From assembly GCA_009103225.1 (NCBI GenBank), contig RHPI01000193.1, positions 62,001 to 126,000 of the forward strand: a stretch of 64,000 bases of DNA, given 5' to 3'. Position numbers and translations under genes: made by a program. This document shows positions 1-57,244 of the stretch, one piece after another. Numbering within the stretch: the first letter of the stretch is position 1; the number at the start of each line of letters is the position of its first letter. The notes under the pieces are model-generated. The model was not told the DNA's origin. It was given only the letters and a program-made list of their open reading frames with translations, and searched no databases. This stretch comes from Chlorokybus atmophyticus (Eukaryota; Plantae; Mesostigma and Chlorokybus algae).

Positions 1-3000
1 TGAACACCAACCCCGGCGAGAAGGTTCTCATCAGGCTTCACGGCTCGGACGCTGAGAACGGCACAGAGCTGGACTTCATCTTGACTGCTCTGCCCCACAA
101 GGGTCTTTTGTACGAAGCCAACAGCCGAGGCAGGACGCGTGGCGGCCCTCTCAACGCAATCAACACCAAGGTTGACAACTATGTCGTGTACGTCCCGGAT
201 GCCAATGGCCGCGACAGTGGCGACGACGTGTACGACAAGTTTGCGTATGTAGCTTCAGATGGCCTCTTGTTGTCACAAGAGGCTTACATCAGCATCCACG
301 TCAACCCTGTCGGCTTCGTCGCTAGCCCTGTTGCTGGTGATGCTGGCTATGCCCTGTCCTTTGATGGTGTTACTGACAAGGTAAGAGGGTGTGCTGGAAG
401 CAGGGTAATAATGTAACACAAGTTCTGAGCAACCCACAAGCACTGACCGACTGGTGCGTGCAGGTGGTGTTGAAGTCGTTGCGATCATATGGTGCGAACG
501 AGTCCATGACCATCGAAGCCTGGTTCAAGACCTTCGCCAACACGCTTGTTGATGACATGACGCTGGTTAGTGCGGGACCCTTGACCGTATACTGGTCGCG
601 TGTGGCCGGCCTGACCATTAGCATCAACGGCGTGGAAGCCAGCACTTACGCCGCATACAACGATGGCTCCTGGCATCACCTTTCAATCTCAGTAGGTGAC
701 AATGCGACCTCCATCATCGTCGATGGCGAGTTGAGGGCTTTCAGTCTGCTCGGCAATGTGGCAATGGCAGTTGACGAGCAAGTGGTCATTGGCATTGATG
801 CCGATGGTCTGGGCGCATTTGGTGGCCAGCTCGACGAGTTGAGCATCTGGTCGCACGCACGTAGCGTGGATGAGGTTGCACACAGTGCTCAGGGCGCTCT
901 GACGCGCGGCGCTAAGGGGCTGAAGGCATACTACAGGTTCAACGAAGCACAGGTGCGTCTTAGTGTGGTTATGCAATTTCAATAGATTACAAGGGCATGC
1001 AATGAATACATTTGTGTGGGGCTCGGGTTGTGCTTTGTAAGATGAGACTGAGTGTTTGTGTGCAACTGTGTCACAGGGTTCTGGCATCACTGATGAGGTT
1101 AGTGGCCATCTGCTGGAGGACGCTCTGGGTGGCAGCGGTGTAGCGGAGATGCAGCCTACGTGGGTTGTCTCAAGCGTTGGTGTTGGCAATGTTGCCAATG
1201 CAACGCAGGGCGTGGATATGCTGCTGAACCTGACTGGCTCGTCGGAGTCCATGGATACTTACGACCTGATCATCGTGGAGCTCCCGAGGCAAGGCGCTTT
1301 GTATGAGGTGGAGGCCAACGGCACTCGCGGAACCAACATCACGTACACGCCGTGGGCGGTGTCCACCAGGGCCGTCATCTACAACTCTGGCTCATACAGC
1401 GGCGCATTTGGGGACAACTTTGGCACATTTGTATATGTTGCAGGCGAGGCTGATGAGGTTCTGGACATCAACTTGGACACCTTCTACGATCATCAGGCGG
1501 ATCAGTGGTCACTTGGGCGTGTGTCGCCACACCAGGCATATGTTGTACATGTTGCGCATCGCCCGGTTGTTGTGATCACAATCAATGAAGACCTCGCACC
1601 TGAGCCGGTTGCTGATGAGCACGCGGTGATGCCGATTGCGGGAGAGGCGGGCGCGGCGTTGCAGTTTAACGGCGTGGCCACAGAGATGACGCTCGGGCGT
1701 GTGCACAACTACCTGAACGACAGCTTCACGTTGGGCTTGTGGTTCCGCACGACGGCGGCCCCGTCGCCAGCTGGCATGGCGCTGGTCAGCTCCGACTTCA
1801 TCTCCATCGGTTGGGACCTTGTGTGGGGTCTGCATGTGCGCGTTGGAGAGTACATCGCACCTACTCTGCAAAACTTCAATGACGCCAGCTGGCATTTCCT
1901 CGCCGCGGAGTGGAACACAACTTACCTGTCAATTTATGTGGACGCGCAACACTATGCATCCATCCCAACTTTACCGTACCTCCAAGTCAATGACTCACTG
2001 ATTGTAATTGGCGTAGACTCGGTTTGCGATGGCTTCAACGGTCAGCTCGATGAGGTTTCAATCTGGTCTGTGAGCGTTGCCGACAATGTGTCCAGGACTG
2101 CTTTTGAGGACAGAATACCTTTCACTGGCAATGAGACCGGCCTGGCGGGTTACTGGCGGTTTAACGGCCATGTGGACGCTGTGTTGTTCAGCGAAATGGC
2201 TGTCTACAACAGCAGTGAAGAGGAGTTTGTGTTCGGGGAAAGTGGAAAGGTCAACACACAGCCGGCGATTGTGGCATCAACGATAGCCAACTTCTCAAGA
2301 CCAGTTGTTACTAATGAAGACGAGCCTGTCGGCATTCATGTTGTGGCCTTGACGTTCACTGAGGATGAGCAAGCAACCCGGCTCAAAATTGTTCGTGCCC
2401 CCTACCATGGCAAGTTAACCCAACATGGACACAGGGTCAGGCAGGACGACAGTGTGAGCGCAGACGTGTTGGTCTACACGCCCGATCTGCATTACGTCGG
2501 TGTCGACAGCTTTGTTTACGCTGCGGATGATGGCGTGCAACAGTCTGACTCTCATGAGGTGAACATCACCATTATCAGAATGCAGCATCGCCCGACCGTA
2601 AGAGACATTGAGGTCGAGGCCAACATGCACAGCTGGGAGCCGGTCACCATCCATCTGCATGGCCACCATGTGCACTATGAGCCACTCGTGTACTGTGTCA
2701 CGACTCTGCCTGTCAGCGGGTTACTCTACGATCCCACCGACAACACGACGGACACGCCTCTCCAGCCTAACTCTTGCTTGGTCTCCGGCCGAGTCATTGT
2801 GTACACGCCGCTACCAGCCGTTAACGCATCAGCGGGTGATAGCTTCGGCTACACGGCCAGCACGCATGACGGGTGGCTAAGTGCAGAAGGCCGCGTGACA
2901 ATCACTCCCGAGGCTGTATTCCTCCCACCCGGCAGCACACCTCTCCCGGGTGCGGGTGGCTTTGCGCTTGCGTTCAATGGCGATTCGGTTGCCACACTTG

Positions 3001-6000
3001 GCAGCATTGGCGACCATGGTTTGGGTTTAGACAACGATGCATCCTTCGTCAACGAGATGACCCTATCAATCCAGTTCAGAACGGCTTATGCAGCAGAGGG
3101 CAGCACTCTGATTAGGTTCGGCCCGCTCGCGTTGGAATGGAGCAGCGCGCTCGGCCTGTACGCTGTTGTTGAGGAAGGTGCCAATGATGAAGTGGTGCTG
3201 CCAACATACCAGCCATGGAATGATGGCGTGTGGCACATTGCTTCGGTTACAGTGAATTCAACGCACGCGAGCTTAGCTGTCAACGGGAGCGTCTTGGCTG
3301 CGCAAAAAGTCGCCAATGTCACCTTTGTTGCTTCTGACGTGGTTGTGTTGGGATCCAACTCACCTTCAGAAGGTTACTTCAAGGGTGAAGTGGATGACGT
3401 GCGAGCGTACCTCAACAGCTTGAACGTAGCGCGCTTCTTTTTCAACGAGGATGTCGGCTCAGGACTCATTAACAATGTCACGGGCATGCTTGGCGGCGAG
3501 CTTGGCTACAATGGTCATCTCACCCCGCAACGCGTACCCTCAACCGCGCCAGTTGATCTGTCTTTCATGACCGAGAGCGCCATTATGAGGCTGTCGGGGC
3601 CATCTCACCGCGACATGGGCGACTTCTACATCATGAACCCAAGCTTTGTGCGCTTTGTTGTGTCGGACGCCACGAACCATACTCAGGTAAGTAGCTGGTT
3701 CAGGACTCATACCCGCAACCATGCACCCTCACGCACACTCTAACATGACACCTACCCAAATGCAGATGCCTGTGGTCAGCCTCACTGAGATATCAGATGA
3801 TGCCCACATGCTTGCTCCCACCGGAGGCAACGGTGGCTACGCCCTGTCCTTTGCCGGTGACGGCCTCTCGTACGTGTCGGTGGCCAACGCTGACATCGAG
3901 GCCGACTCGTTCACAGTGGAAGCTTGGATCAATAGCAGCGACGGCATTGATGTTGGTACCATTGTGGCTTCGGAAGCGTTTGCATTGCAGGTGAGTCAAT
4001 GGATGACAGCATAGAGTCTCCGGCGTCTTTTGCAAGTTGTGCAAATGCAGCAATTGCATGCCCCCAACCTGTTTGTCTTTGACAGGTGCACTATGCGCTT
4101 GGAGCCGTGTTTACGGTCAGGACTGGTGCTGGCCCTGTGAGCGTGGAGAGCTTTACCCAACTCAATGATGGCAACTGGCATTATCTGGCGGGCACCTGGG
4201 ACAGTCTTGGCACAATCAAGGTACCACACCGTGGCTAGAGCAGCTTTCACGTGCAGTCCTGCTTGCAATGATGGTGTCACAGTTAAAATTGTGCATATAG
4301 GCAAACACGTGCGTGTTAACATGACAGGTGTATGTTGATGGCGAGCAAGTGGGATCAGCAACAGTGGACTCCTATTCTGGCGTGCCCCTTATCCACTTGA
4401 TAACCATTGGCCAAGACATCGACGGCATGGACTCGTTTGCAGGTTTTATTGATGAGGTCAAGGTCTCAGATATGGCGTTCAACGCTGCGGAATGGGAGCC
4501 GGAGGCACCCTACTACTGGGATGCTGCAGGTACTATACCAAAGCAATGTGTGGTCTCAGCTACAGAGGGTGCACTGTTGCTAACTGTGTTGCGCGCATCA
4601 ACAGGCTTGTCGGCACCGCAATATGGCATGCCTGGGTTGAAGGCCCATTACAGAATGAACGAAGGCTCAGGGTCGCTTGTCAGTGATGCGAGCGGGTTCG
4701 GCCGTATGGGTGAGGTCCACTCTTCTGGAACACTTGCCTGGGTGATGGGCGCACCAATGGACAACTCTGTCACTCTTGCGGAAGACACCGAGGCAACTGT
4801 CATCTCCTTGCAAGTGTCTCCAACACTCACTGCTCGCGCTGTCATTGCGGGACTGCCAGCAAATGGAACTCTGTTTAATACCGCTGATGGGCTCGAGTTT
4901 GGAGAGGAGATTGAGTCTGTGCCTGCGTTGGTGACCAACGACAACGGTCTTGTCGTGTATGTTCCTGATGCGGACTTCAATGGCGAGGACCATGTGGCGT
5001 ACTATTCCATGGATCAGGAAGGACGCATCACGGACACCATCATTGTGGCGCTTGATGTTAGGGCCATCAACGACCCGCCTGTGGCCACGTATGTGTCAGC
5101 CAATGTCTCCATTGACAAGAACACCGATGCCTTGTTGAGGGTGTCTGGTAAAGATGTCGACGGGCCGCTCTCCCCGCCACACGTGTATGTTGTCACGCTT
5201 CCTCAGTTTGGCATGCTCTACCAAGTCGACCACGACAACATGACCGGCAACATGATCACGGAAGTGCCGAGCCTTGTGGAGGGAACATACGTGCTATACG
5301 TGCCTGATGTCAACGGCTACGGTGACCCTTACGACGCCGTCACGCTCATCTTGGTTGACTCTGAGGATGAAGTGTCCATGACGGAAGAGATCACCATACC
5401 TATCACGGTCAAGCCAACCTTCTTGGCTGCCGACCCGCACGCACCCATTGATCAGCCAGCTGTACCAGTAAACACGCCCGTCGCTGGTGAGAGCGGACAT
5501 GCTCTGCGGTTTGATGGTCAGACAGTATCCGTCACATTGGGTACCTCAGTGTTCTCCGCAAACGAGTCCAACATTGATGTCAGCAATGTCAACCTTGACT
5601 TCAATGGCACCTTCACGATGGAGCTCTGGTTCCGCACGTCAGCTGTGCCAGATGACTACACGACGCTGATATCAAAGGGTGTTGTGCCTCCTGTGTTCGG
5701 TGACCACTCATACTCGTTGCACTGGACCAAAATGTTTGGCCTTGGCTTCTACGTCACCACCGCCGATGGGTACACCACCGCTGCTGTGGACCCTGAGAAC
5801 CCGCAGTTCCTCAACGACGGCGCGTGGCATTTTGTGTCTGCGGTGTGGAGCACAACCGGTGGCTCTGCCTCAATGTATGTGGATGGCGAGTTAATCGCCA
5901 CAACATACTGCGACGAGTGCGAGCTGGGCATCACTCCTCTCATCGTCGACGAACTTGTCACGGTCGGCAGAAGCGCCAGTGATGTCACCACTCAGTACTT

Positions 6001-9000
6001 CGCTGGAACCATCGACGAGGTTGGTGATTTGAACGATGTATGCGTGTGCACGTGCACACATCTTACTCTGTGTTATGTGTATGTCGTTGATTGTTGCGCA
6101 ACTCTCATTTATCGCATTCTTCTCCCGTGCAGGTGCGCATGCTCAGGAGGCAGCGCAACCCATCAGAGATCTGGAATGACTGGTACGAGTACAGGGCGGC
6201 GAATGCATCGGACCCGCTTATGGCTGGGTACTGGCGCTTCAACGAGGCAGTGGGTGACTCTGTGAGCGACTCCAACCGCAAGCCGTTTACGTTGGGCGGC
6301 ACCGTTGCTGGCGCGCTTGAACATGCGTGGGTTCCAAGCACGCTGCCCATGCCTTCCGTCGCCCTCATCAACCCCACGCTGGAGTCTGTCATCATCATAC
6401 CACTTGTTGGCGGGGATGCCGATGACAACCAGCTGTCCTTCTCGCTCACCGAACTGCCTCAACTGGGCACGCTGTACCCTGTTTATGACGGCGTTGTGGA
6501 CTACTCCAGCTCTATCGACCGCAACGACTACCTACTGCCCACGCCCGCCGTTGCCTACGCCATAGGAAACCTCACCGAGCCCGTCAACAGCAACTACACG
6601 CAGTTTGACTACAGCGTGTCGGATGGCCGTGAGGTAAGTACACTCAGTTATAGCCTTCTTGTTGCTTGTTACAAGTTGGGCAATTGCAAGGGGATTTACC
6701 AAAATTGTGTTACGCAGACATCAGCTCCAGAGACGGTGTACATCAATGTGGTCGGCGTGAACCGCTCGCCTGTTGCACACGCGCAGTTTATTGATGTTCT
6801 TGAGAACACGCCCACCACCATCAAATTGGACTGCAGCGACCCTGATGGCAATGGCCTCACTGCTGTCATCATTGAGGTGAGTGGCAATGCAGTCTTCAGC
6901 ACGAGCTAGGTGAATGGCTTTGAACATGTTCTGACATCCATTTCTGCAGAGCGTATGGTTTGGCTTTGTGGACGGGTCGTACGACACTCCATACGAAGTG
7001 ACCCCTCAACCAGACGGGACTTTGACCATCTTGTACGAGCCATCAGAGTATTTCAACTCTCCTGAATACGATACCTTCACGTATGTCGCTGTGGATGATT
7101 TTGGTGCACAGTCAGAGCCCGCCACAGTGACCATCAACGTCATCGCCGTTAACAACCCACCTGTCCTCACTGCCAATCCCCGCCAGGTGTGTGCCAATTC
7201 ACGGCTGGTTTGCCAACAACATCATGTTAGACTTGTTGCAGCCACTCAACACGCGTACCTTGTTCTCACAGGGCATCTTCAAGAACTTAGCGGTGCTGAC
7301 GGGTATCTATGTGGACGATGTCGATGTGTTTGAGAGTCCTGATGGCTACTTGACTGTCACCATTACGGCCAAGACCGGCAAGCTTGGTTTGAGTGCAGAT
7401 GAAGCTCTGGGCGCGAGGGCCCCCAACAAGGTCATCATCAATGGGGATCTGATCTCAGCCAACCAGCAGCTGGCTCACGTTTGGTACCTTGCTGTCAATG
7501 GGCCCGGCTCCAATGACACACTTGATATCTTAGTCAGCGACAACGGCTTCACTGGCAGGCCGATGCAACACAATCCAATCACGGGTCAGATGGAGGTGTA
7601 CGTGTACGACAGCCTTATTGACAATGTGATGTTGTCCAATGATGGTAGCCACATCACAGTCACGTGGAAGTACCCCACCAACACAGCAGGCACGGTTGTT
7701 GGTGTTGCCTTCGACTGTTCTGATGTGCTGGAAGCAAGCACTGTAAATCGATTGGGCGATGAGGCACACTGCAACTTTATGAGTGACACAACTTTGGAGG
7801 TTTGGTTCGGAGGGTATGCAGAGCTAGTCCCTGGCGACGCTTTAGCGTTCATTCCCAACACCATTGCCGTATACGTGGGAGGCTCCTCTAACGCTGTGCC
7901 AAACAACCTTGACTCCGCGGACATTGCTGCGCCGATAAACCCAACAAGCGCCTCGGCCCTCATCTGGGGTCCCGACTCGCTCTCAAGCTGCGAGGACCTC
8001 TACATGGACGGTTACTCATCCTCGGGTGACGCCAACCGAGACCTGAGCTACCAATGGATAGTGGCAGGCCTGCCTTCACGCTTCCTCACGCTGTGGCTGA
8101 GACGCAACCCCGAGAGCTATGTCTGGTTGCCTTCCAGTGAGGTCCCCGGTGGAAAGAGTTACAGTCTCACCCTCGTTGTGAGCAACTGGCTGCGGTCTTA
8201 CAGCGCACCTGCGCTCAAGCAAGTGTACAAGTCACGTGACCCGATCCCCTATGTGGCCATTAGCGGCCCTCAGTACATTGAGTGGAGGTCAAACATCGGT
8301 CTCTTTGTCGATGCTTATGTGGACAACGCCGATTGCGTCGAGGACATCACGCCGACCTTAACACAAAAGTGGTCCGAAACGCACAACCACCTCGCAAACC
8401 TCCCGCAGCCGGACAACCTGCCCATGCTTTACATACCACCTGGCACCATGCAAGCCCTGGATAGCCCTTACACCTTTCGCATCACAGTGACAGAGTGCTA
8501 CACGCTGCCTGGGGAGGACCACGTGTCGTGCTACAACAACGCCGCAGACGCGACCGTGGCGTTGATCCCACGCCCACTTGTTGCTGACATCGAGGGTGGC
8601 CAGGCGCGCCTGGCATCCACCTCCTTGGTTCTCACATTAGATGCTTCGAGATCGTACGACCCTGAAGGCAGCACCATCAGCTTCTCTTGGTCGTGCGAGA
8701 CCTTAGCAGCCACTGGCGTCTCAATCAGCAGTTCATGCGGGAACACGCCACCTCCTTCAAGCGCGCTCTGGAAGATACCGGCAGGTTCCATTGCCGCGGG
8801 CAACTACTCGTTCACTGTCACGGTGTCCGATCCTGCCACGGGGCGCGCTGACTCCGCCACCACCATCGTGGAGATGACCGATGCCTCTGCCCCGTCCGTA
8901 ACCGTGCGCTCCTACAGCCTCCAGCACAAGGTCAATCCTGAGGACATCCTTTTGCTGGATGCGTCCTCGTCGTTCGCGCAGTCCGCGTCCGGCGCGATTC

Positions 9001-11066
9001 TCTTCAGCTGGAAGGTGCAATCGGCGCCGCTGCAGAGCTCATCCCAGTGCCAGCAGGGCCAGACACCCGAGTGCACGCAAGCACCGTCCTCCCTTCCGAA
9101 CCTGAGCAACCCCGCGGTTGTCCTCACGAGCAACACGCAGGCGATGCTAGAGCTCCAGCACAACGTGCTCGTCCCCGGCAGGTACCTCTTCACCGTGTAC
9201 GGCTACGACGCCAGCAACGTTGACATGCAGGGCTACGCCTCCATCGCTGTTGTGGTGAACTCCCCCCCCACCGGTGGCATGCTCTTGGCATCTCCTCGCA
9301 ACGGTACCGAGCTCGTGACCGTCTTCACACTCAAGGCCAGCAGCTTTGCTGATGCGGACACGCCTCTCCAGTACCAGTTTGGTATCATGGTGAAGGGCAA
9401 GTTTGTGGGGCTGTCGAGTAAGACTGCCACGGCCGTGTTCAACACCACGATGGCGGCCAACGTGACGGCCGCCGTCCGCGTGTTCGACGGCCTTGGAGCC
9501 AGCACGGTTGCCACCACGCAGGTGCAAGTGCGCATCGCCAGCGCGGGTACCAGCATCCAGGTTATCAGCAATGCGATCAACAACCTGATCAACAACATCG
9601 TGCCCAATGGCAACCCCGATGCCATCATCGCAGAGGCCATCAAGATAGGGCTGGTCATCAACAATCTGGGCAGCAACGGCAACACCACGCAGATCATGCT
9701 CTGGCGCGAACAGCTCGTGGACATTGTGCTCAAGGCTTCCCTCCTGCCTGGTGCTAATGCCGACAGCGTTGCGGACGCAATTCTCATCATCATCCCCTTC
9801 GGTGTTCCCATCACGGCACGCACGTACCAGCTGCTGATCGATTGGTTGACTGCAATCGTGGACAACTCCACTCTCCTCCCGGAGCTACTGGCGGGCAAGT
9901 ATATGCAGATAGTCAACATCCTCATGAACGCGGCGGCCAACGGGCTCGTGCAGCCGCTCGCTCCAGCCAACCGACGACGGCTCCTGGCACTCACGCAGAG
10001 CCAGTTTGCCGTCCTCGACGTGTTGGTTCAACGCATAGCGGCCCTCGCACTACACGACCCCTCCGTGCCAGCAGGCAGGTTGGTATTGCTGCCGTCGGGA
10101 GGCACACAGACCTTCACTGCCCTCGCCGTTCGCCACACGCCCACGCAACTCGCGGCTCCTTGGTCCATTGGCCCCTTCTCAGTACCAGCAATTGATGCCA
10201 GCGGCATCGGTACTGATGTGAACTTTGTCTTCCGCGCATTTAGTGCATCGCTGAACCCATACGACTTCACGGGAGAGCAGCCTTCGGCCGTGGTGCAAGG
10301 TCTGTTCCCGTATCTGTACACTACTCCCCGGGCGGGTAAGCCGGGCACAACCTTCCCGCTCGCGTTCGCATCAGAACAACCGTTCAACTTCACGCTGCCA
10401 CGCCTTGCACCCGCCATCCCACCCCTCGTGCCGTACTGCGAGGCCTACACGCCGGGCGAGAACAACTCCTCGTCCTTCTCGCTCGTGGGCACATACACGT
10501 ACCTCAACGGTGGTGACGCGACAGTGTACTGTTCCGCCAACGCACTCCCGCATGACTTCACCGCGTTCGACAAGGTCCCTGCCCCTCCCCCACCTTTCGC
10601 TCCAACACCTGGCTTCGGTCCCACTCCCGCACCCGCCCCAGGACCAGGTATTCCCATCCCAGGACCCGCACCCGCACCCACGCCAGGGTTTGGCCCTGGG
10701 CCGGGTCCAGGACCAAGCATGTCCCCGCCCGTGCCCGTGCCAACGGTCCCGCCCCCGCCTTTGCTCCCGCCGTCGTCACCACCCGGCCCACCATCAAAGG
10801 GCAAGAAGAGCCGCAATGTTGGGGCGATTGTGGGTGGTGTTGTGGGTGGTTTCTTCGCGCTCGTGTTGATCGTGCTGGCCCTCGTGGCAGCGGCCAAGAG
10901 GAAGCAGAAGAAGATGCGCAGGCTCATTATCAACGCCGACGAGGGCGAGATGCTCAGCAGCACCAACGGCGTGGTGGACGTGGGCGTGGCCGCGCGCATG
11001 GGACTGCCCCGCGCGCCCGTCGCTGGCGCCATGCGCACGTACGCCCAGCTTGAAAATGAGGAATAA
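1..11066 (+). CDS. Giant single-pass cell-surface protein, 5'-truncated by the window (>3380 aa): (Big_9/cadherin-like + LamG-like jellyroll) x5, Ig/PKD-like, REJ domain, GPS-like motif, Pro-rich stalk, TM helix, short cytoplasmic tail
   Basis: Exons <1-380, 464-952, 1077-3686, 3766-3990, 4086-4220, 4328-4529, 4605-6019, 6133-6633, 6718-6876, 6950-7186, 7272-11066 join in frame through GT-AG introns of 73-124 nt. Five LamG signatures recur (AG.AL.F.G / T.E.WF[KR] / NDG.WH / G.[LI]DE[VL]). Big_9-like repeats (e.g. GSDAENGTELDFILTALPHKG, DSFVYAADDG) lie between them. REJ hallmarks are LDASRSYDPE and VNSPPTGG...FTLKASSFADADTPLQYQF. TM VGAIVGGVVGGFFALVLIVLALVAAA (~10818-10895) is followed by KRKQKK. 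Stop TAA at 11064-11066. Confidence 0.85.
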
Positions 11067-19822: not shown

Positions 19823-22730
19823 CTAGAACTTGACCTTCATGAGGACAGGGTTGAGGAAGATAGGTAGCAAGAAATGTCCTGCGGTGAGTATGGCGAGTGG
19901 CCCGATGGCGTAGAAGGATTGGATGTTGTATGGCACACCCAATGGGAGGTAGTAAAGTGCTCCTATCATGATGGCTGTGAGGATGGTGCAGATGTACATG
20001 CCTCTGTATCCAGCAACAGTGACCTTAACCTCCTGGAAGAAGTTGCTCTTCTTGACCTCCTTGACAGTGGATGTCCACTCCATCTTCAGTTGAAAGAGGT
20101 GTCCAACAATGGCTGTGAGGAGGTGGAGACCAATGCCATTGAAGAAGAGGAGGAGCTGGAAGGTGTGTTGGAACTCCTTGAACATACCACGCAAGAGAGA
20201 GGTGTGGCTGAGTCTGTACTTCAATATGCCCAGGGCGATGGGGTTGATGATGCCGAACAGGATGATGCAGAAGAAGGCAATGTCAATGGTGTGGATGACC
20301 TCCTTGGCCCAGAGACCATTGTAGGAGAAGTTCCACATGAAGTAGTTGAACAGCACGGCGATGGGTGAGGTGGCCATGGCGAAGTAGGTGCCCAGGTAGG
20401 CCAACAAGTTGTACTTGTAGTAGAGTGGGACTTGTCTCGTCTTGAAGAAGCGACGGATGACAGGTGAGAAGGGCCCGCGCGTGATCCATTGAGAGAGTGG
20501 GTTGAAGAGCAACTCACTGCTACCGAAAGCATACTTCTGAAAGCGAGTAATCTCATCGTGGCAGGTGAGAGAGAGCCCCTCCTTGAAGTTGGGTCCTGTA
20601 TATGTCACATAGCGACCAATGTATCCCTTGCTTTGCATGCGTAGAGACATGTCAAAGTCCTCAGATACGTGGCTCTCAGACCAGAACTTGGTTGCTCCAT
20701 CCTCTCCATCAACAAAAGCCACCTCACGGATAGCGGACCAGCGTAAAAAGGCGTTGTGTCCAACAAGTGGTGCTGGGTCCCCTCCACTAGATGCAATAAC
20801 AACAGCCACCTTGTAGATAGTGTTGGTGAAGTGGGCAATGGCATCCTCCCAGTAGTCACCCACGACCTGCATGGGTGAGGTGAGGTGCTGCGTGAAGGCC
20901 ACCTCGGGTGAGAGCATCAGCTCAGATACAGAAGGCAACATGCAGTCCTCGGGGATACGTGTGTCGGAGTCAATGAGCAAAATAAACTCGCCAACGCGCA
21001 CGTCACCGCCCATCATGAAAGCGTGGTCATCCTCCTCAAGGATTTCATGAAGAGCCTTGCCCATGTATTTGACCCCACCCAACCGCTCAGTGCGCTCCAT
21101 CACTCTCAAGGATGTGGACAAACAGAAGTTCATGTTGGATGCCTTCTTGAACCTGCCTTTTCTCCCAGCTGCGGGCCGAGCAACGAAGCCAATGTTGTGC
21201 ATGCGGTAGTAGGCGATGCGTCGGTTGCGCTCCTTGCGTGGTACCAACATCAACCCATCATCATTGATGAACACATTGACTCTCCCACCTTGCTCCTCAT
21301 AACGCCTTGCCGCAGCCATGACAGACTCCAGTGTGGGTTGCAAGACCACAGCAAAGCCCTCTTTATAAACAGGCATCTGCACTGTCACCATAGGCAAAGG
21401 CGCCTCCGCACTCGCTTGATAAGGCGGCGGCGCTATCGCAGAGTAGTATTTACTGTTCTGCTCCACGTGGGCGATGGGACCAAAGGTGCATATGATGGAT
21501 AGGAACACCACATTGGCGCCGAAGCCCATGAAGAAGGCTATCCATGGGAAAGCCAAGAAGTGGAGGCAACGGAACCAGCGGCCGTCATCAAGACTGTATC
21601 GGATGTATCTGAAGCCCCATGCGACGAGGATTACTGTCACCAAAAGGGCGGAGCAGCAACAAATAACCCAGTTCATGCGACGGACAGGACGCTCAGCAGA
21701 CCAAACAGCCTTCGCTTGCTTGCGCTTGCCCTTGGCTGCCTCCTCCTCCTGAATACATACACGCGCGTGCATCAGACAATAGCATCGAAGTCTCATCAGC
21801 ACAATTCGCATACACCACATGAACAGCGGATGCATCAGACAGGCAAGCAGACAACAGACTGGCATTCGCATTTGCACGAGGTTGTAACCCAGACCAGTGC
21901 ACAGCGGATCAAAGGATGCAGCAAACAGGCATACAAGGAGACATTTCACTACAACATGACTCAATGCAGGTGACTGCGCTGACCTCTTCTGGCTCGACTG
22001 CCTCTGTCGCTCCTGCCTCTCCCTCTGCAGGCATGCCTCCCTCTGATGTTGGCGATGTGGCCCCCTTCTTGTCTCCATCGCCGGTCACGTCATAGACGTC
22101 ATACATGTCGCTGTAGAGGTCGTCGTGGTCAAAGCCGTACAGGTGCCTGGTCCTGGCCGCCATTGCAATAGGGTCCTCCTTCTCATTGTTGAAGGACTTG
22201 TTGTTCTTCTTGTAGCCGTCGTCGTCGTACCCGTCATAGCTGGCCTCCGAAGCCACGTAGCCTCCACTGCCATACTTCTTGTCCTTGGCGCCACCATACT
22301 TGTTGTAGGACTCGGTGCTGGTGGGTGCGACAGCGGCAGATCCACCTCGCCTGGCCTGGCCTGCTGCTAGCCTGGTCTGACCTCTGCTCCATCTCTCGTC
22401 ATCGCTGTCGCCGTTGTTGTTGCCGTTGATGTCGCTGATGGGCAGGCGTGTGTTGGACGGGGCGTTGTTGTTGTTGTTCCTGGCTCCTCCTGGGGCAGTG
22501 TTGGTGAGTGAGGCGACACGCAGTCTGGCGCCGCCTGGTGCGACGGCAGTGGCGGCGGCGTTGTCCTCCTCCATGATGTTGAGCCTGGCCGGGGAGGCGG
22601 CGGCGGGACCACCACCCCCACCACTCTCCTCCTCCACTCTCAGCCTGGCATTGCCGGGCCTGGCGCTGCCGCCAGCGGTGCTGCCACCTCTCCTGAGCTT
22701 GATCTCCTCATCTGCCCGGTTGGGGGCCAT
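19823..22730 (-). CDS. Membrane-bound GT2 glycosyltransferase (Glyco_trans_2_3-like, fungal-type processive glycan synthase), ~890 aa
   Basis: Exon 1 22730-21984 is a low-complexity N-terminus. Phase-0 intron 21983-21749 (GTCAGC...ATTCAG). Exon 2 21748-19823 has 2 N-terminal TMs, QMPVYKE, INDDG, FKKASNMN, IDSDTRIP, VGHNAFLRWSA, SHVSEDF, EITRFQKYAFG and about 5 C-terminal TMs. Confidence 0.92.
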
Positions 22731-22949
22731 CGCCTCGGCCACCACCACGGCCTCCGCCGCCGCCGCCGCCTTCACCCACCGTGATGCTATTGCTACCGAT
22801 GAGTGAGTGAGTGAGTGAGTGAGGCTTGCTGCTGCTGCTGCTGCTGCTGTGAGGTCGTCGTACCAAATTGGGCGCACGTGACTTGGGGTTGCCCGTAAAA
22901 GGGTTGACTCCCACAAACACGAGAGTTGACTTACGTATTAGGACAAGGC

Positions 22950-24658: not shown

Positions 24659-26251
24659 ATGTGGTTGTCGTCGGAGGGTAGGCGCATGCTGGCGGCGACT
24701 GCAGCTCAGGCTCAGCTGGACACACTTGCTGCTAAGGTTGCCGGGGCGCACGGACCACGGCCGTCAGTAGCCAGCATCAGCGGGGGCGAGCCTGCCTGCC
24801 TGCCTGGCAGACAAGCACACAAGCAGGTAAGAGCGTCATGTTGCTGCGCTGTCTGCTGGTGGCGCTTGTTTATAGCGCTTGCGTGGCTGTGTGGATCTTA
24901 CGTCGTAGGAGGAGTCCTGTAAGCGTTTTCAGTTTTATGTTTGAATAGGCTTCTTTACTTTTGGCTGATTGCGCTTGGTTATAGCGCATGTGTGGCTCTG
25001 TGGATTCTGCGGCGTAGAAAGAACTCTCCAAGCCCTCTCAGTAGTTCTTCAGAAGGCTTGCATTGTGGACATGCCGTGACGGGAATTGTGCATAGTGCTC
25101 AGCTGCTGACTATGTCTATTGCCTAGAGCTACTGCCATGACCCTATAGCTGTGTTCGAGCGCATAGTGCAAACGTATGCAGATGCTGTCTTCGTCTCCAT
25201 GTTGGAATGCTCCTCTACATGCCGGTGCTGGATGGATGCCAAGCAGGAAGTTGCTTTGCGCCGAACAGCCTCGGGGATTAAAGAGCTGACTGCAAACCAG
25301 CTGCTAGAGGAGTTTGAGGCCTTGGCAGCGGCAGCAAAGCATGGCATTGTTACCTGGAATCTAACCAACAACGCCATTGCCCCGCCACTTCTCAGGGAAC
25401 TTTTTGAGCTTGTCCGGAACAGCAACGTTACGCTGCATGCAACCATGTTAGTGGACTTGGAGGCCAACCGCCTGGGCGCCATGACTGTACAAGACCACCA
25501 GGCTATCCTTGCCTTGTTCAAGCAATCAAACTTGCGGAGGCTTGTTGTGCGATTTGGGTTTGAGATTTTCATCCCATATCTCAAGCAAGCTTTGGACAAT
25601 GCTGGCATGACAAATCTGTACAACACACGCATCTTTATCTCTCAGCCTTGGCAGGATAGTGCCCTAACAGTCGTGCTCGAAAGACTGGACAAGCAGCTTG
25701 CCTTCTCCGAGCAGAGGGTGGCAAAGCTAGAGCTACGCAAAGATCCAACGGAGCAGTTGAGGCAGCTCAAACGGGACACGAATGACCAGCTGGTTGAAGA
25801 GTGCGTCATTGAAGCAGTTGCCGCGGCTCTTAAGAACCCGGTTACCATCTTGCCAACTCGATATGAGTATGAGGCTCGTGGTGGTGATCTGGACGGCCTC
25901 GTTTCAGGTGTGCATGACGAAAAGGAGGTGATTGTTCTCGTAGAAGCCAAACATAACATGGACACCGCGTGGAGAAAAGCACAAGACGAGTTGTTTTCTT
26001 CATGTAACTACTGGGAGTACTTGTGTGCAAACGTTGGTAATTTGGAGGAGGACGAGGAGACGGATGCCACGCAGCTACGCGTGGCAAAAAATCGTGACCG
26101 CAAGGTTATGTTTGCCTTTGGTGCCTGTAAGTTTTCAGACAGTGTTGCTAGCAAGCGGTTTGGTAGCATCAAGACAGATTGGTTTCGAGTTGTTCCGGAA
26201 CCACGCGGCAAGTTTGTTGCCAAGCATTGGCAAGGTGGTAACATAGAGTAG
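24659..26251 (+). CDS. F-box-like / LRR / coiled-coil / PD-(D/E)xK (restriction-endonuclease-fold) protein, ~430 aa
   Basis: Exon 1 24659-24826, phase-0 intron 24827-25126 (GTAAGA...GCTGAC...CCTAG), exon 2 25127-26251 fully open. Motifs in order: DPIAVFERIVQTY-x7-MLECSSTCRCW (F-box-like); WNLTNNAI, VDLEANRL, NLRRLVV (LRR-like); LERLDKQLAFSEQRVAKLEL (coiled coil); VEE...GDLDGLV...VLVEAKH (E, D, E-x-K catalytic set). Confidence 0.8.
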
Positions 26252-26981
26252 TGATGAGGGCTGGCAACAGTTAGCAACCTTGTCAACGTGTATGCAAAGA
26301 CAGCCAAGCATTAAGTAGTGTACAGTCCTCGTGCATGCGCACTAGAGAGCAACGGCACACAGCGAGTAAGTGCACAAGAGTTCGAAGCATGCCGACACAC
26401 TATACAGAGTGAAGGTACAAAAACCCTACTCAGCTGTCACACAGTACTGCTGCGCTTCACCCAATGCGGGAGCCGGTGGATGAGGAAGAGCGGGGGGTAA
26501 ATGGAGGGGAACGAAAAAGGAGTCTGTGTTTGCTGCTCGTTGCTGCTGCACATCCCCACTTCAATGTGAAATCGCTGATTGTAGCCAATTCGAGCTGGTA
26601 CCTACAATTGCTTGCATACATGGCTAACAAGTGTTCGAAGCTGTAGTGGTAATATCAGGGTAGTCATACAATTAGGCAAGCAAAACTGACTGCCAAGCAT
26701 AAACCATGCAGACCATGCCTGTGCGACAAAACTTGCAAACACTTACAGCAGGACACAGGAGCTCGCATATCATCCTATTCGCGTGATCCAAGCATGCATC
26801 TATAACACTCAGACCCTCACGTCTGTTGGAGTTTTCTCCAATTTACTCACGAATCTCAAAGCCCATACACACATGCAACCAAGTTACCAATTGCAACGGG
26901 CACCTGGCATGCACAACGTGCGCCATGATAGCGTGCGGCCAACACTCACCCAAACTAGCTAGACCTAAGCCCTCACTATCA

Positions 26982-54315: not shown

Positions 54316-56626
54316 ACCAGACTCACTCTAAATAGTCGATCACACGCTGCTCAGTGCACCAGCCTTGCGGCAGATTGAAGCTGGAAGCCATTACCGTCGG
54401 CACCGTCCATGGAAGTGTGCAAGCAATAGCTACACTGTCCTGCCATGGCTGCGACACGAAAATGCAAGTGCCGAATCTGCATTTTGCGCGGCACACGTGT
54501 TGTACAACTTTCACAAATATTTTAGCATACCTACGTTGTCACAAGCATTGTAAATACTCAGTAGCATATATTGGAATCACACTACAAGTCTCGGCAAACT
54601 TACTTCAGCAAGGCACAAACAACATCATGGTTCTGTACAAGCATGCTATCCCGGATTTGGCAAATGCCACCAGTGGTCAACCGCTAAACCGACCAATATT
54701 GTTGCGTGCAGCGTGTGTTGCTGTTTTTACCAAGCTCCATAGCAGTGGCAGGGCAACGACATTGTTGATTAAGCTCATTCACAAATGAAGGTCGGTTAGC
54801 GCATTCACATTTTTATGTTGTCATATGTAGCAGAGTGTCGTGGCTACGATTATAACACTATGCTGCATTTTACATCAAGTGAGTAAGTATTGTTAACATT
54901 TGCTCGTCTCCGCATTATGCATGCATAGCTTGCGAGGTAAGAAGCTTGATGTTACGTCGAGCATTTCCACTAGGCCATGTAAGGAAAAGGCGCTTGCGTG
55001 TTGCGGTTTTCTTGAGATGTATAATTATTCAAGCCCCAACCCAAGGGCTATCATAATTGTGACGTTTCCACACTTACTTACTTGCTGGTCGGGTTGGCAA
55101 ACATATGCACGAGCATAAGGACTTACAACACTTTATGGATGGAAGTCCTACCAGCCACCATCTCTGCAGCACCTCGCATGAGAATCAACGCACCAAAGGA
55201 AGGAGAGCACGCCCACTTTGGGAACACCTTCCCACGCCAAGTACTCACACCAAGGAAGGAGAGGATGACCGCACGCCCTCCACTCACTCCAGCACGAGGC
55301 ACGAACACACATGCACCCAAGGTGGCGCACACGCACACATACTAGCACATCCTACAAGGGATGACAGGGAGAGCCCCTTCAACAGCTAACTAGCTAGGCA
55401 CCCCACGCACAAGTGGCCCTTTCGCAAGGTTAACACGCGCAAGTAATTGATTGGACCCCACACAAGGTTGCAACTTAATTTATACCACATGTCGCTCCCC
55501 GACCAGGCACATGATGTCCAAGGCCAACAAGGCCTTGTCATAGTGCGCTGACTTGACACATGACGTTTCCCACATAGGGATCATTAAACTCCACCTCGGG
55601 AGAATTGTTTATCAAGGCCTTTTACCTCGGAAATTATCAACATAGACACAAGATACTTTTCCTAAGCTAACAAGTCCAACGCAGGACTTGTCCCATCGTA
55701 AGACATTAACCTAGGGTCATACGTAATGTTTAACACGGGACAACACATGTGCACAGCATGCCGCTTGGGCCATTAGCAGCTTACTGTTGCCTATAGCAGA
55801 CACACAATGATGGCAACCAGCGTCGTACTAACATAAGCTGCCCGAAACAGCTTACAGCTGCTTCAAGAGTAGCATACATGGCATTCTTGGTTACATCGGA
55901 GTAAACATTGACCAGCTCTATGCTAGCCCTTATCAATGCCTTGTGTAGTGTTGTGTTTAAAACTCGAAGGAAACATGAACACGACTAGAGGAACACAATT
56001 GCTGAGCACTACACAGCTCAACGATCGGAATCTCTACTTGATTCGTCTTATTTACATAAATGAGGAACAGAGAATGACTTTTGCCAGCCCTATGGGCGTG
56101 ACAATTACACTTGAAGTTTTGTTACGCATCACACATGAGAGAGATACTCAAGTAAAAGACATGGTCACACACTCACAAGCAAGGCAGCTAACTAGCTAGC
56201 TTGCATCCAAAATGTCAATATCGCATGTGAGAACCATAGTGTTTACCTTTGTTCGTATATCCACTTGATGCTACCTACAACACTACTACAGCGCTCCTAC
56301 TTATGCCCTGCTAATGAGGGCGCTTCAACACAACACCTTCAAAAATTTCAACATGCTTAGATTGATTGAAGTTGTTGGCGCTAAAGAGTGCCGCTTGGTC
56401 CGACCAATCAATCAACGCTTGGCAAAGCATTGATCAACTGTTCGTGTTCGTCACGTGCAACTTGACCTCTTCACTTTCCTTTGATGTGCTCTTGTATAGC
56501 GACAATATCATCATGCACAACTCTCAAAACATGAAAATGCTAATATCCATTTGAATGCACGTAAAATTCGTTACAACTCCTCCATATCTTTAAATGGTTC
56601 ACTGTCGATGTTTTATGCTTTATTTT

Positions 56627-57052
<426 letters not shown>

Positions 57053-57244
57053 NCGCATCGCCATTAACATTATAACTGCACGTATTGCAACAGGTGAAAT
57101 AATAAAGTTGATTTATACCGCAATTGCAACATGGCTGTACATGTCAGCAGTAAAGGAACGGATGTTAATGCGGCGCAATGTGGTTTATTTATTTGATTCT
57201 TTATTCCCTTTTTATTTAAGTGCAGCTTTAGGTCTGAATGGGAT

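What the first reader, a model, noticed from the sequence alone, without database searches (positions are those of the whole stretch)
24659..26251. F-box-like + LRR + coiled coil + restriction-endonuclease-fold nuclease in one protein
Seen: an intact gene whose 375-codon second exon carries an F-box-like motif (P..VF..I...Y-x7-MLEC...CR.W), 2-3 RNI-like LRR strands, a heptad coiled coil, and a complete PD-(D/E)xK catalytic set (E...DLDG...VEAK). Established: F-boxes recruit substrates to SCF ligases, and eukaryotic PD-(D/E)xK domains outside repair enzymes occur mainly in CR/Crinkler-type toxins and mobile elements. Inference: this could be an undescribed sensor-effector or toxin module, such as an LRR-gated nuclease controlled by SCF turnover, acting in algal innate immunity or conflict. 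It is the best candidate for a new system in this window.
Basis: partly seen in the sequence, partly recalled or inferred. Interest (0 to 1): 0.85.

Follow-up and report, generated by a model that had tools for sequence, protein, structure and literature searches.

The report
Algal LRR-nuclease family, no F-box
This spliced algal gene encodes a protein predicted to join a short leucine-rich-repeat domain to a restriction-enzyme-type nuclease; it belongs to an unnamed family also found in other algae and likely acts as a gated defence or conflict enzyme, but the proposed F-box is not supported.

Summary
Half of the finding stands. The C-terminal domain is a predicted PD-(D/E)xK nuclease: it folds like FokI, PaqCI and NucS, and E189, D221, E238 and K240 are each kept in 78-81 of 84 aligned rows. 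An RI-like LRR domain of about four turns and a short helical stalk precede it. The F-box fails. Contigs from two studies splice 24826 to 25182, not to 25127. None of 130 library hits aligns to that stretch, and 0 of 137 relatives has a Pfam F-box. The real product is likely 339-350 aa. It belongs to an unnamed family with no Pfam entry (130 clusters at 50% identity). Named members come from Volvox and Tribonema, and the host is Chlorokybus-like. Scans of prokaryote, phage, plasmid and viral collections found no relative. Best reading: a minimal LRR-gated nuclease effector without an NTPase, akin to CR/Crinkler REase proteins. Activity, target and gating are untested, and horizontal transfer was not shown. 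I could not read the main CR paper, so the novelty is provisional.

The parts
24676..24826 (+). Exon 1, likely 5' leader (no ATG in frame with the main ORF)
   Evidence: Contigs of X2 and X3 begin at 24676 and 24677; joint to 25182; three-frame reading
24827..25181 (+). 355-nt GT..AG intron
   Evidence: Joint seen in one contig each of X1 and X2, two studies; ends GTAAGAGC..GTATGCAG
24686..25289 (+). Spliced upstream ORF of 82 codons, out of frame with and overlapping the main start
   Evidence: its translation and effect are untested
25142..25231 (+).
25232..26251 (+). Main coding sequence, 339 aa from ATG 25232 (350 aa if ATG 25199 is used)
   Evidence: Relatives start here; covered by contigs 25178-26305
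25253..25654 (+). Predicted RI-like LRR domain, residues 8-141: beta-hairpin cap plus four strand-helix turns of 30-33 residues
   Evidence: pLDDT above 90; top N-domain matches DRC LRR Z 8.2, RanGAP Z 7.7, NLRP14 Z 7.7, NLRP3 Z 7.6
25664..25789 (+). Helical stalk, residues 145-186; about three heptads in the first helix
   Evidence: Helices 145-167 and 172-199; distance W140 to E189 ranges from 33 to 132 residues in 57 rows
25790..26230 (+). Predicted PD-(D/E)xK (restriction-endonuclease-fold) domain, residues 187-333; E189 at 25796, D221 at 25892, E238 at 25943, K240 at 25949, E253 at 25988

Best explanation
The gene is spliced and encodes a 339-350 aa protein, predicted to be a metal-dependent PD-(D/E)xK nuclease held on a helical stalk behind a short LRR domain, and it likely acts as an intracellular conflict effector whose cutting would be gated by what the LRR binds. 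Shown: the splice, the open frame, family-wide conservation of the catalytic residues, and a start at the LRR domain. Predicted: both folds. Inferred: that the conserved exposed LRR residues (D75, N79, R80, R107, E111, P139, W140) bind one conserved partner or nucleic-acid feature, that the stalk brings two catalytic domains together as in FokI-type enzymes, and that cutting harms an invader or kills the affected cell. Out-of-frame upstream ATGs would keep its level low. No F-box or SCF step is involved.
For: Spliced contigs in two studies. E189 79/84, D221 81/84, E238 78/84, K240 79/84, Q/E253 77/85; all four of E/D/E/K in 68 of 84 rows, at mostly 20-48% identity to this protein. Model pLDDT 93.4, pTM 0.57. 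C-domain matches FokI Z 8.3 (rmsd 3.4, 134 aligned), PaqCI 7.4, NucS 7.3, XisH 7.1; N-domain matches RI-like LRRs at Z 7.4-8.2. The C-domain's language-model neighbours include NERD- and Mrr-labelled clusters at 0.88-0.90. 55 of 138 proteins carry both domains, and the same nuclease also occurs behind other LRR types and unrelated N-termini. This modularity, the variable stalk and the patchy presence match the pattern described for eukaryotic CR REase effectors (PMC5289972 section 11). The neighbouring GT2 gene has a 76% match in Chlorokybus atmophyticus, whereas this protein's best full-length matches are 42-44%, so it is not a conserved core gene.
Against: No activity, target or localisation data. 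Z-scores of 7-8 are middling and can reflect a common arrangement (note). With the shallow alignment a STAS fold scored as well as LRR (Z 7.8 vs 7.5); with the deep one it fell to 5.8. The LRR face is conserved rather than diversified, and only one copy lies in the 64-kb window, unlike expanded immune receptors. The tree does not show horizontal transfer: window plus Volvox as one clade is not rejected (p-AU 0.764). Upstream ATGs could mean that little protein is made. A conflict role rests on analogy only.
Confidence: 0.45

Rival explanations
1. A selfish or virus-borne nuclease gene that moves between protist genomes and was captured here, expressed from a borrowed promoter, with no benefit to the host.
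For: Coding part on a single exon; GC3 0.57 against 0.67 for the GT2 neighbour; no close match in the Chlorokybus atmophyticus proteome surfaced, although the neighbour has one; star-like clade mixing green algae and a stramenopile; relative L003 lies on a gene-dense contig whose neighbour resembles a giant-virus gene (recalled, untested).
Against: No relative in viral contigs in 4 scans with family queries. No convincing terminal inverted repeats or extra copies around the gene. No transposase, NTPase or RT domain among 137 relatives. Relative L001 has a spliceosomal-type intron. Green monophyly is not rejected.
Confidence: 0.25
2. A housekeeping DNA-repair or RNA-processing nuclease whose LRR domain binds its substrate or a cofactor, lost in many lineages.
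For: Both domains are conserved to a similar degree (0.40 and 0.43 mean top-residue share); fold neighbours include repair and processing enzymes such as NucS; single copy in the window.
Against: Only a few named members; 42-44% best identity; swapped N-termini and a 33-132 residue linker range.
Confidence: 0.15
3. A transcribed but barely translated copy: the upstream out-of-frame ORFs block the main frame, and the gene is a recent relic.
For: ATGs at 24686 and at the splice junction 25182 precede the in-frame ATGs at 25199 and 25232; unspliced contigs also occur.
Against: The frame is intact with all catalytic and most family residues kept, despite a 0.67 terminal branch.
Confidence: 0.1
4. 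One reading: a 430-aa F-box + LRR + nuclease controlled through SCF.
For: The acceptor at 25126 is in frame and has a branch-like CTGAC 20 nt upstream; a loose F-box-like pattern is present once in the window's six frames (the pattern was written from this sequence, so this is no test).
Against: The observed splice skips the motif; no Pfam F-box in the stretch or in 137 relatives; low-confidence single helix; 33 of 42 relatives with a near-complete LRR domain have 20 or fewer residues before it.
Confidence: 0.04

Closest known systems
CR (Crinkler-RHS-type) REase effectors (Zhang et al. 2016, known here only through the review PMC5289972)
   Same: Eukaryotic N-terminal module plus C-terminal restriction-endonuclease-fold domain, modular, present in free-living algae and other eukaryotes.
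   Different: The N-terminal module is LRR-like, not the ubiquitin-like, helical or Myb-HTH headers named in the review; no NTPase or kinase domain; no local expansion or transposon seen. Whether the nuclease falls in one of that paper's REase groups could not be checked.
PD-(D/E)xK nucleases FokI, PaqCI, NucS, XisH, UPF0102, and the Mrr and NERD families
   Same: [quoted passage not shown]
   Different: Only 7-16% identity in structural alignments; no Pfam, NCBIfam or PADLOC family match; no methylase or DNA-recognition domain.
Sensor-nuclease fusions Can1/Can2/Card1 (CARF plus PD-(D/E)xK)
   Same: A sensor domain fused to a restriction-fold nuclease; the nuclease parts align at Z 5.6-6.6.
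   Different: Prokaryotic CRISPR accessories with a CARF sensor (established knowledge); here the putative sensor is an LRR and gating is untested.
RI-like LRR proteins (RanGAP, NLRP/NOD LRRs, tropomodulin, DRC subunits)
   Same: Parallel strand-helix solenoid; DLxxNxL motif.
   Different: Only about four turns of 30-33 residues, the last two degenerate; no NACHT or NB-ARC domain, so it is not an NLR.

Membership tests
PD-(D/E)xK superfamily | [quoted passage not shown] | tested here: met
   Predicted elements H172-199, E201-207, E222-228, E231-242, H243-266, E291-300; structural matches
PD-(D/E)xK superfamily | Acidic and lysine catalytic residues on core strands 2-3 | tested here: met
   E189, D221, E238, K240 conserved in 78-81 of 84 rows each
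PD-(D/E)xK superfamily | Metal-dependent phosphodiester cleavage | not testable with these tools
   Needs an assay
F-box proteins | F-box profile match | tested here: not met
   No F-box family at E<=10 for the stretch or at E<=0.01 for 137 relatives
F-box proteins | Motif present in the mature mRNA and protein | tested here: not met
   Observed splice removes 25142-25181; a minor isoform is not excluded
F-box proteins | Three-helix fold (recalled) | tested here: inconclusive
   One helix at residues 6-26, pLDDT 42-50, with no alignment depth there
F-box proteins | SKP1 binding | not tested
RI-like LRR domain | Parallel strand-helix solenoid | tested here: met
   STAS alternative Z 5.8 against 7.4-8.2
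RI-like LRR domain | LxLxxNxL consensus and Pfam LRR profile | tested here: inconclusive
   Consensus in turns 1-2 (D75 45/51, L76 47/52, N79 47/54), degenerate in turns 3-4; no Pfam LRR hit for this protein; weak LRR_1 hit, E 0.033, in relative L001
CR/Crinkler proteins | Ubiquitin-like or alpha-helical header domain | tested here: not met
   The N-domain is predicted as an LRR-like solenoid; header types from PMC5289972 section 11
CR/Crinkler proteins | C-terminal REase toxin domain | tested here: met
   Fold level only
CR/Crinkler proteins | Sequence membership of a defined CR-REase group | not testable with these tools
   Zhang et al. 2016 and its supplements are not held
CR/Crinkler proteins | Lineage-specific expansion or transposon association | tested here: inconclusive
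   One copy in 64 kb and no convincing terminal repeats; no whole genome held
NLR receptors | NACHT or NB-ARC NTPase domain | tested here: not met
   Two-domain model leaves no room; longest library hit 456 aa; no such Pfam family in 137 relatives
NERD / Mrr_cat / DUF4263 | Pfam profile match | tested here: not met
   None; Atlas similarity 0.88-0.90 is a lead only; the DUF4263 label on P0005 is a source's name with no Pfam hit behind it

The most novel reading that the evidence does not exclude
A eukaryote-specific family of single-chain immune effectors in algae and protists, in which a four-turn LRR directly gates a restriction-fold nuclease with no NTPase switch: a minimal sensor-executor distinct from both NLRs and Crinklers, kept low by an overlapping upstream ORF.
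Probability: 0.25. Interest if true: 0.8.

Novelty: new variant of a known kind. Interest (0 to 1): 0.5.

Why it matters
Algal and protist innate immunity has few named effectors. A family of at least 130 divergent clusters with an intact restriction-fold active site behind an LRR is a small, soluble and directly testable candidate. If the LRR gates the nuclease, it would be a sensor-executor design without an NTPase in eukaryotes. If not, it is still an unannotated nuclease family, and the gene model here is corrected.

Tried and rejected
F-box and 430-aa gene model: rejected. Profile searches gave no family for this protein: Pfam, NCBIfam, PADLOC, PHROGs (one weak hit, E 0.005), PDB sequences (best E 0.39 and 0.64). 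Foldseek alone was weak (PDB best E 7e-4 BsmI, none at or below 1e-3; viral best 2e-4, unnamed). No relatives in viral contigs, prokaryotic genomes (62, 92), phages or plasmids. The contig scans need near-exact peptide patterns and the other two were single-query tblastn, so distant relatives are not excluded. The full-length Atlas search gave only a 0.77 hit. No run was on record as RNA; X1-X3 are guessed RNA, and the removed GT..AG intron is the evidence of splicing. Horizontal transfer was tested and not shown. The tree is the quick version on 104 of 128 C-domain hits. A STAS fold for the N-domain was considered and ranked lower on the better model. A homodimer prediction and a second read-laying were not available, so dimer formation, paralogues at 80-90% identity and splicing controls in neighbouring genes are untested. 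Paralogue count and dN/dS were impossible without the genome. Literature: 9 searches answered, and none of the listed titles or abstract starts describes this family; accession terms of the Volvox and Tribonema members were in no paper. Earlier findings of the scan: nothing relevant.

Full report
Setting. The window is eukaryotic. The gene lies on the + strand between a family-2 glycosyltransferase gene (- strand, 19823-22937; PF13632, E 9e-44) and an intron-rich gene on the - strand beyond about 26750 that I recognise from memory as eIF5B (no call). The glycosyltransferase's best match is a Chlorokybus atmophyticus (Chlat1) protein at 76%, with the next at 43%, so the host is likely a Chlorokybus-like streptophyte alga. 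No whole genome is held.

Gene model. The frame 25127-26251 is open for 374 codons. I laid contigs of 4 of the 7 listed runs. One contig each in X1 and X2 (two studies) joins 24826 to 25182, removing a 355-nt GT..AG intron. No contig joins to 25127. The runs are guessed, not recorded, to be RNA; the clean loss of a GT..AG intron is the evidence. Unspliced contigs also reach into the intron (X1 24878-25207, X3 24677-24869, X5 24906-25155), so intron retention, pre-mRNA or DNA is present too. On the observed splice, ATG 24659 and ATG 24686 give 91- and 82-codon ORFs that stop at 25289. The first in-frame ATGs are 25199 (350 aa) and 25232 (339 aa). Under intron retention, a TAG at 25124-25126 still closes the frame upstream.

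F-box. P6-Y17 of the claimed motif lies at 25142-25177, inside the intron. The stretch has no F-box Pfam match at E<=10. In the model of the 374-aa frame it is one helix with pLDDT 42-50 (no alignment depth there, so this is weak). Of 130 library hits, none aligns before residue 36, which is the Met at 25232. Of 42 relatives whose LRR domain is near complete, 33 have 20 or fewer residues in front of it. One relative, P0089, starts with a stretch much like the window's own at Met36. None of the 137 relatives has an F-box family at E<=0.01 (88, 49). I regard the F-box as a chance pattern.

Family. The word-indexed search gave 6 relatives at 42-47% identity, among them Volvox carteri, Volvox africanus and Tribonema minus proteins. 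The exhaustive search gave 130 clusters at 50% identity with E<=0.001, 77 at 1e-10, the longest 456 aa. That library has no names. Of 16 clusters looked up, 3 name an organism; the rest are EukProt, NCBI, Logan, ENA or JGI entries with no species shown. The family's range is therefore known only from a few points. With profiles built from alignment A2 (89 rows chosen from the hits, favouring longer ones), 55 of 138 proteins carry both domains, 71 only the C-domain (mostly fragments), 11 only the N-domain and 1 neither. Eleven C-only proteins have 100 or more residues upstream: five carry a divergent form of the same LRR (its two alignments share members), one has another LRR type by eye, and the rest have unrelated or uninformative N-termini. 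The nuclease is thus modular. Four metagenome loci were found. In L001 a clear LRR ORF and the nuclease ORF are separated by a short GT..AG stretch that would join them in frame (read by eye), which points to a eukaryotic nuclear gene. Scans of viral contigs, prokaryotic genomes (62, 92), phages and plasmids found no relative, at limited sensitivity.

Structure. With 89 rows, AlphaFold2 gives pLDDT 93.4 and pTM 0.57 for the 339-aa form, i.e. two well-formed domains with no fixed relative position. Residues 8-141 form a hairpin cap and four strand-helix turns (strands at 39-43, 71-76, 104-108, 134-136). The best matches are RI-like LRRs: a Tetrahymena DRC subunit Z 8.2, a designed LRR 7.9, RanGAP 7.7, NLRP14 7.7, NLRP3 7.6; STAS domains reach 5.8. 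In the shallow model STAS and LRR tied. Residues 187-333 match FokI (Z 8.3, rmsd 3.4, 134 aligned), PaqCI 7.4, NucS 7.3, UPF0102 7.2, XisH 7.1 and many other PD-(D/E)xK enzymes. Each Z alone is middling, but the hits for each domain agree in kind. The predicted order of elements fits the core topology given in PMC3424549 (passages seen). E189, D221, E238 and K240 are kept in 79, 81, 78 and 79 of 84 rows, and Q/E253 in 77 of 85; 68 of 84 rows have all four. The linker holds two helices; the first has about three heptads, so 'coiled coil' is modest. The W140-E189 distance runs from 33 to 132 residues across 57 rows. No Pfam, NCBIfam or PADLOC family fits. Atlas neighbours of the C-domain include NERD- and Mrr-labelled clusters at 0.88-0.90, as leads only.

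Evolution. In a careful tree of 25 near-full-length rows, the window protein sits in a starred 18-row clade (97/93) as an unresolved star together with the Volvox group and Tribonema. Forcing window plus Volvox together against Tribonema and the outgroup is not rejected (p-AU 0.764; the constrained tree was 5.9 log units better). Horizontal transfer is therefore not shown, and inheritance with many losses fits as well. No close Chlorokybus atmophyticus match surfaced (best full-length identities 42-44%), although the neighbour has one at 76%; recent gain, loss, fast change or missed annotation could each explain this. The window has one copy and no convincing terminal repeats.

Mechanism. I commit, at 0.45, to an intracellular LRR-gated nuclease effector. 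Shown: splice, open frame, conserved active-site residues, modular family. Predicted: the two folds. Inferred: cleavage activity; dimer formation through the stalk; binding of one conserved ligand by the LRR, since D75 (45/51), N79 (47/54), R80 (42/55), R107 (52/66), E111 (45/64), P139 (62/73) and W140 (58/74) are conserved rather than variable; damping by the overlapping upstream ORF; and a role in defence or conflict, by analogy with CR REase proteins. The substrate (DNA or RNA) is unknown. Rivals: a selfish or virus-borne passenger (0.25), a housekeeping nuclease (0.15), a barely translated relic (0.10), and the F-box model (0.04).

Comparison and novelty. It works like, but is not shown to be, a CR/Crinkler REase protein. 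The review PMC5289972 (passages and section 11 read) names ubiquitin-like, helical and Myb-HTH headers and NTPase- or kinase-coupled REases, not an LRR. The primary paper (Zhang et al. 2016) and its supplements are not held and may well list this family; that is the main limit on the novelty claim. I also saw passages of PMC12957317 and PMC8195603, neither describing it in those passages, and search listings only for the other papers. Nine literature searches gave no listing that describes it. Verdict: a real, apparently unannotated LRR + PD-(D/E)xK family; new variant of a known kind; interest 0.5, down from 0.85 because the F-box/SCF element fell and the function is inferred only.

Noticed in passing
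window 24855-24933 and 24964-25042 (+), inside the intron: A 79-nt direct repeat at 75% identity. In one frame both copies read as a hydrophobic stretch followed by basic residues; 7 of 12 differences fall on third positions, with 6 synonymous and 4 non-synonymous codons (P about 0.07 before allowing for frame choice). The second copy's frame runs on, across one TAG at 25124, into the main ORF. Possibly a relic of a membrane-anchor exon; not significant.
   Followed up: partly
window 19823-22937 (-): Family-2 glycosyltransferase whose best matches after the Chlorokybus protein (76%) are ulvophyte (Bryopsis, Ostreobium) and many ascomycete proteins at 41-45%: a patchy alga-fungus distribution.
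   Followed up: no
L003 164-808 (+) and 927-1640 (-): A family member with a frame-broken run of short repeats at its start sits next to a Cys/Trp-rich ORF that resembles, from memory, a conserved giant-virus gene. It had no Pfam, NCBIfam, PHROG or close viral-contig match.
   Followed up: partly
L001 589-1621, L004 2-358; P0006: Variants with ExM in place of ExK (also in the Tribonema protein), possibly inactive or re-wired. Downstream lie a 96-aa ORF with a weak Cas2 hit (E 0.034) and, on L004, an LRAT-domain gene (E 2e-13).
   Followed up: no
window 377-11063 (+): Very long open frames (900, 646 and 1311 codons) that look like one large extracellular protein.
   Followed up: no
window about 39700, 41600 and 56600-57100: Runs of N and a long dinucleotide (GA) repeat: assembly gaps and a microsatellite.
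   Followed up: no
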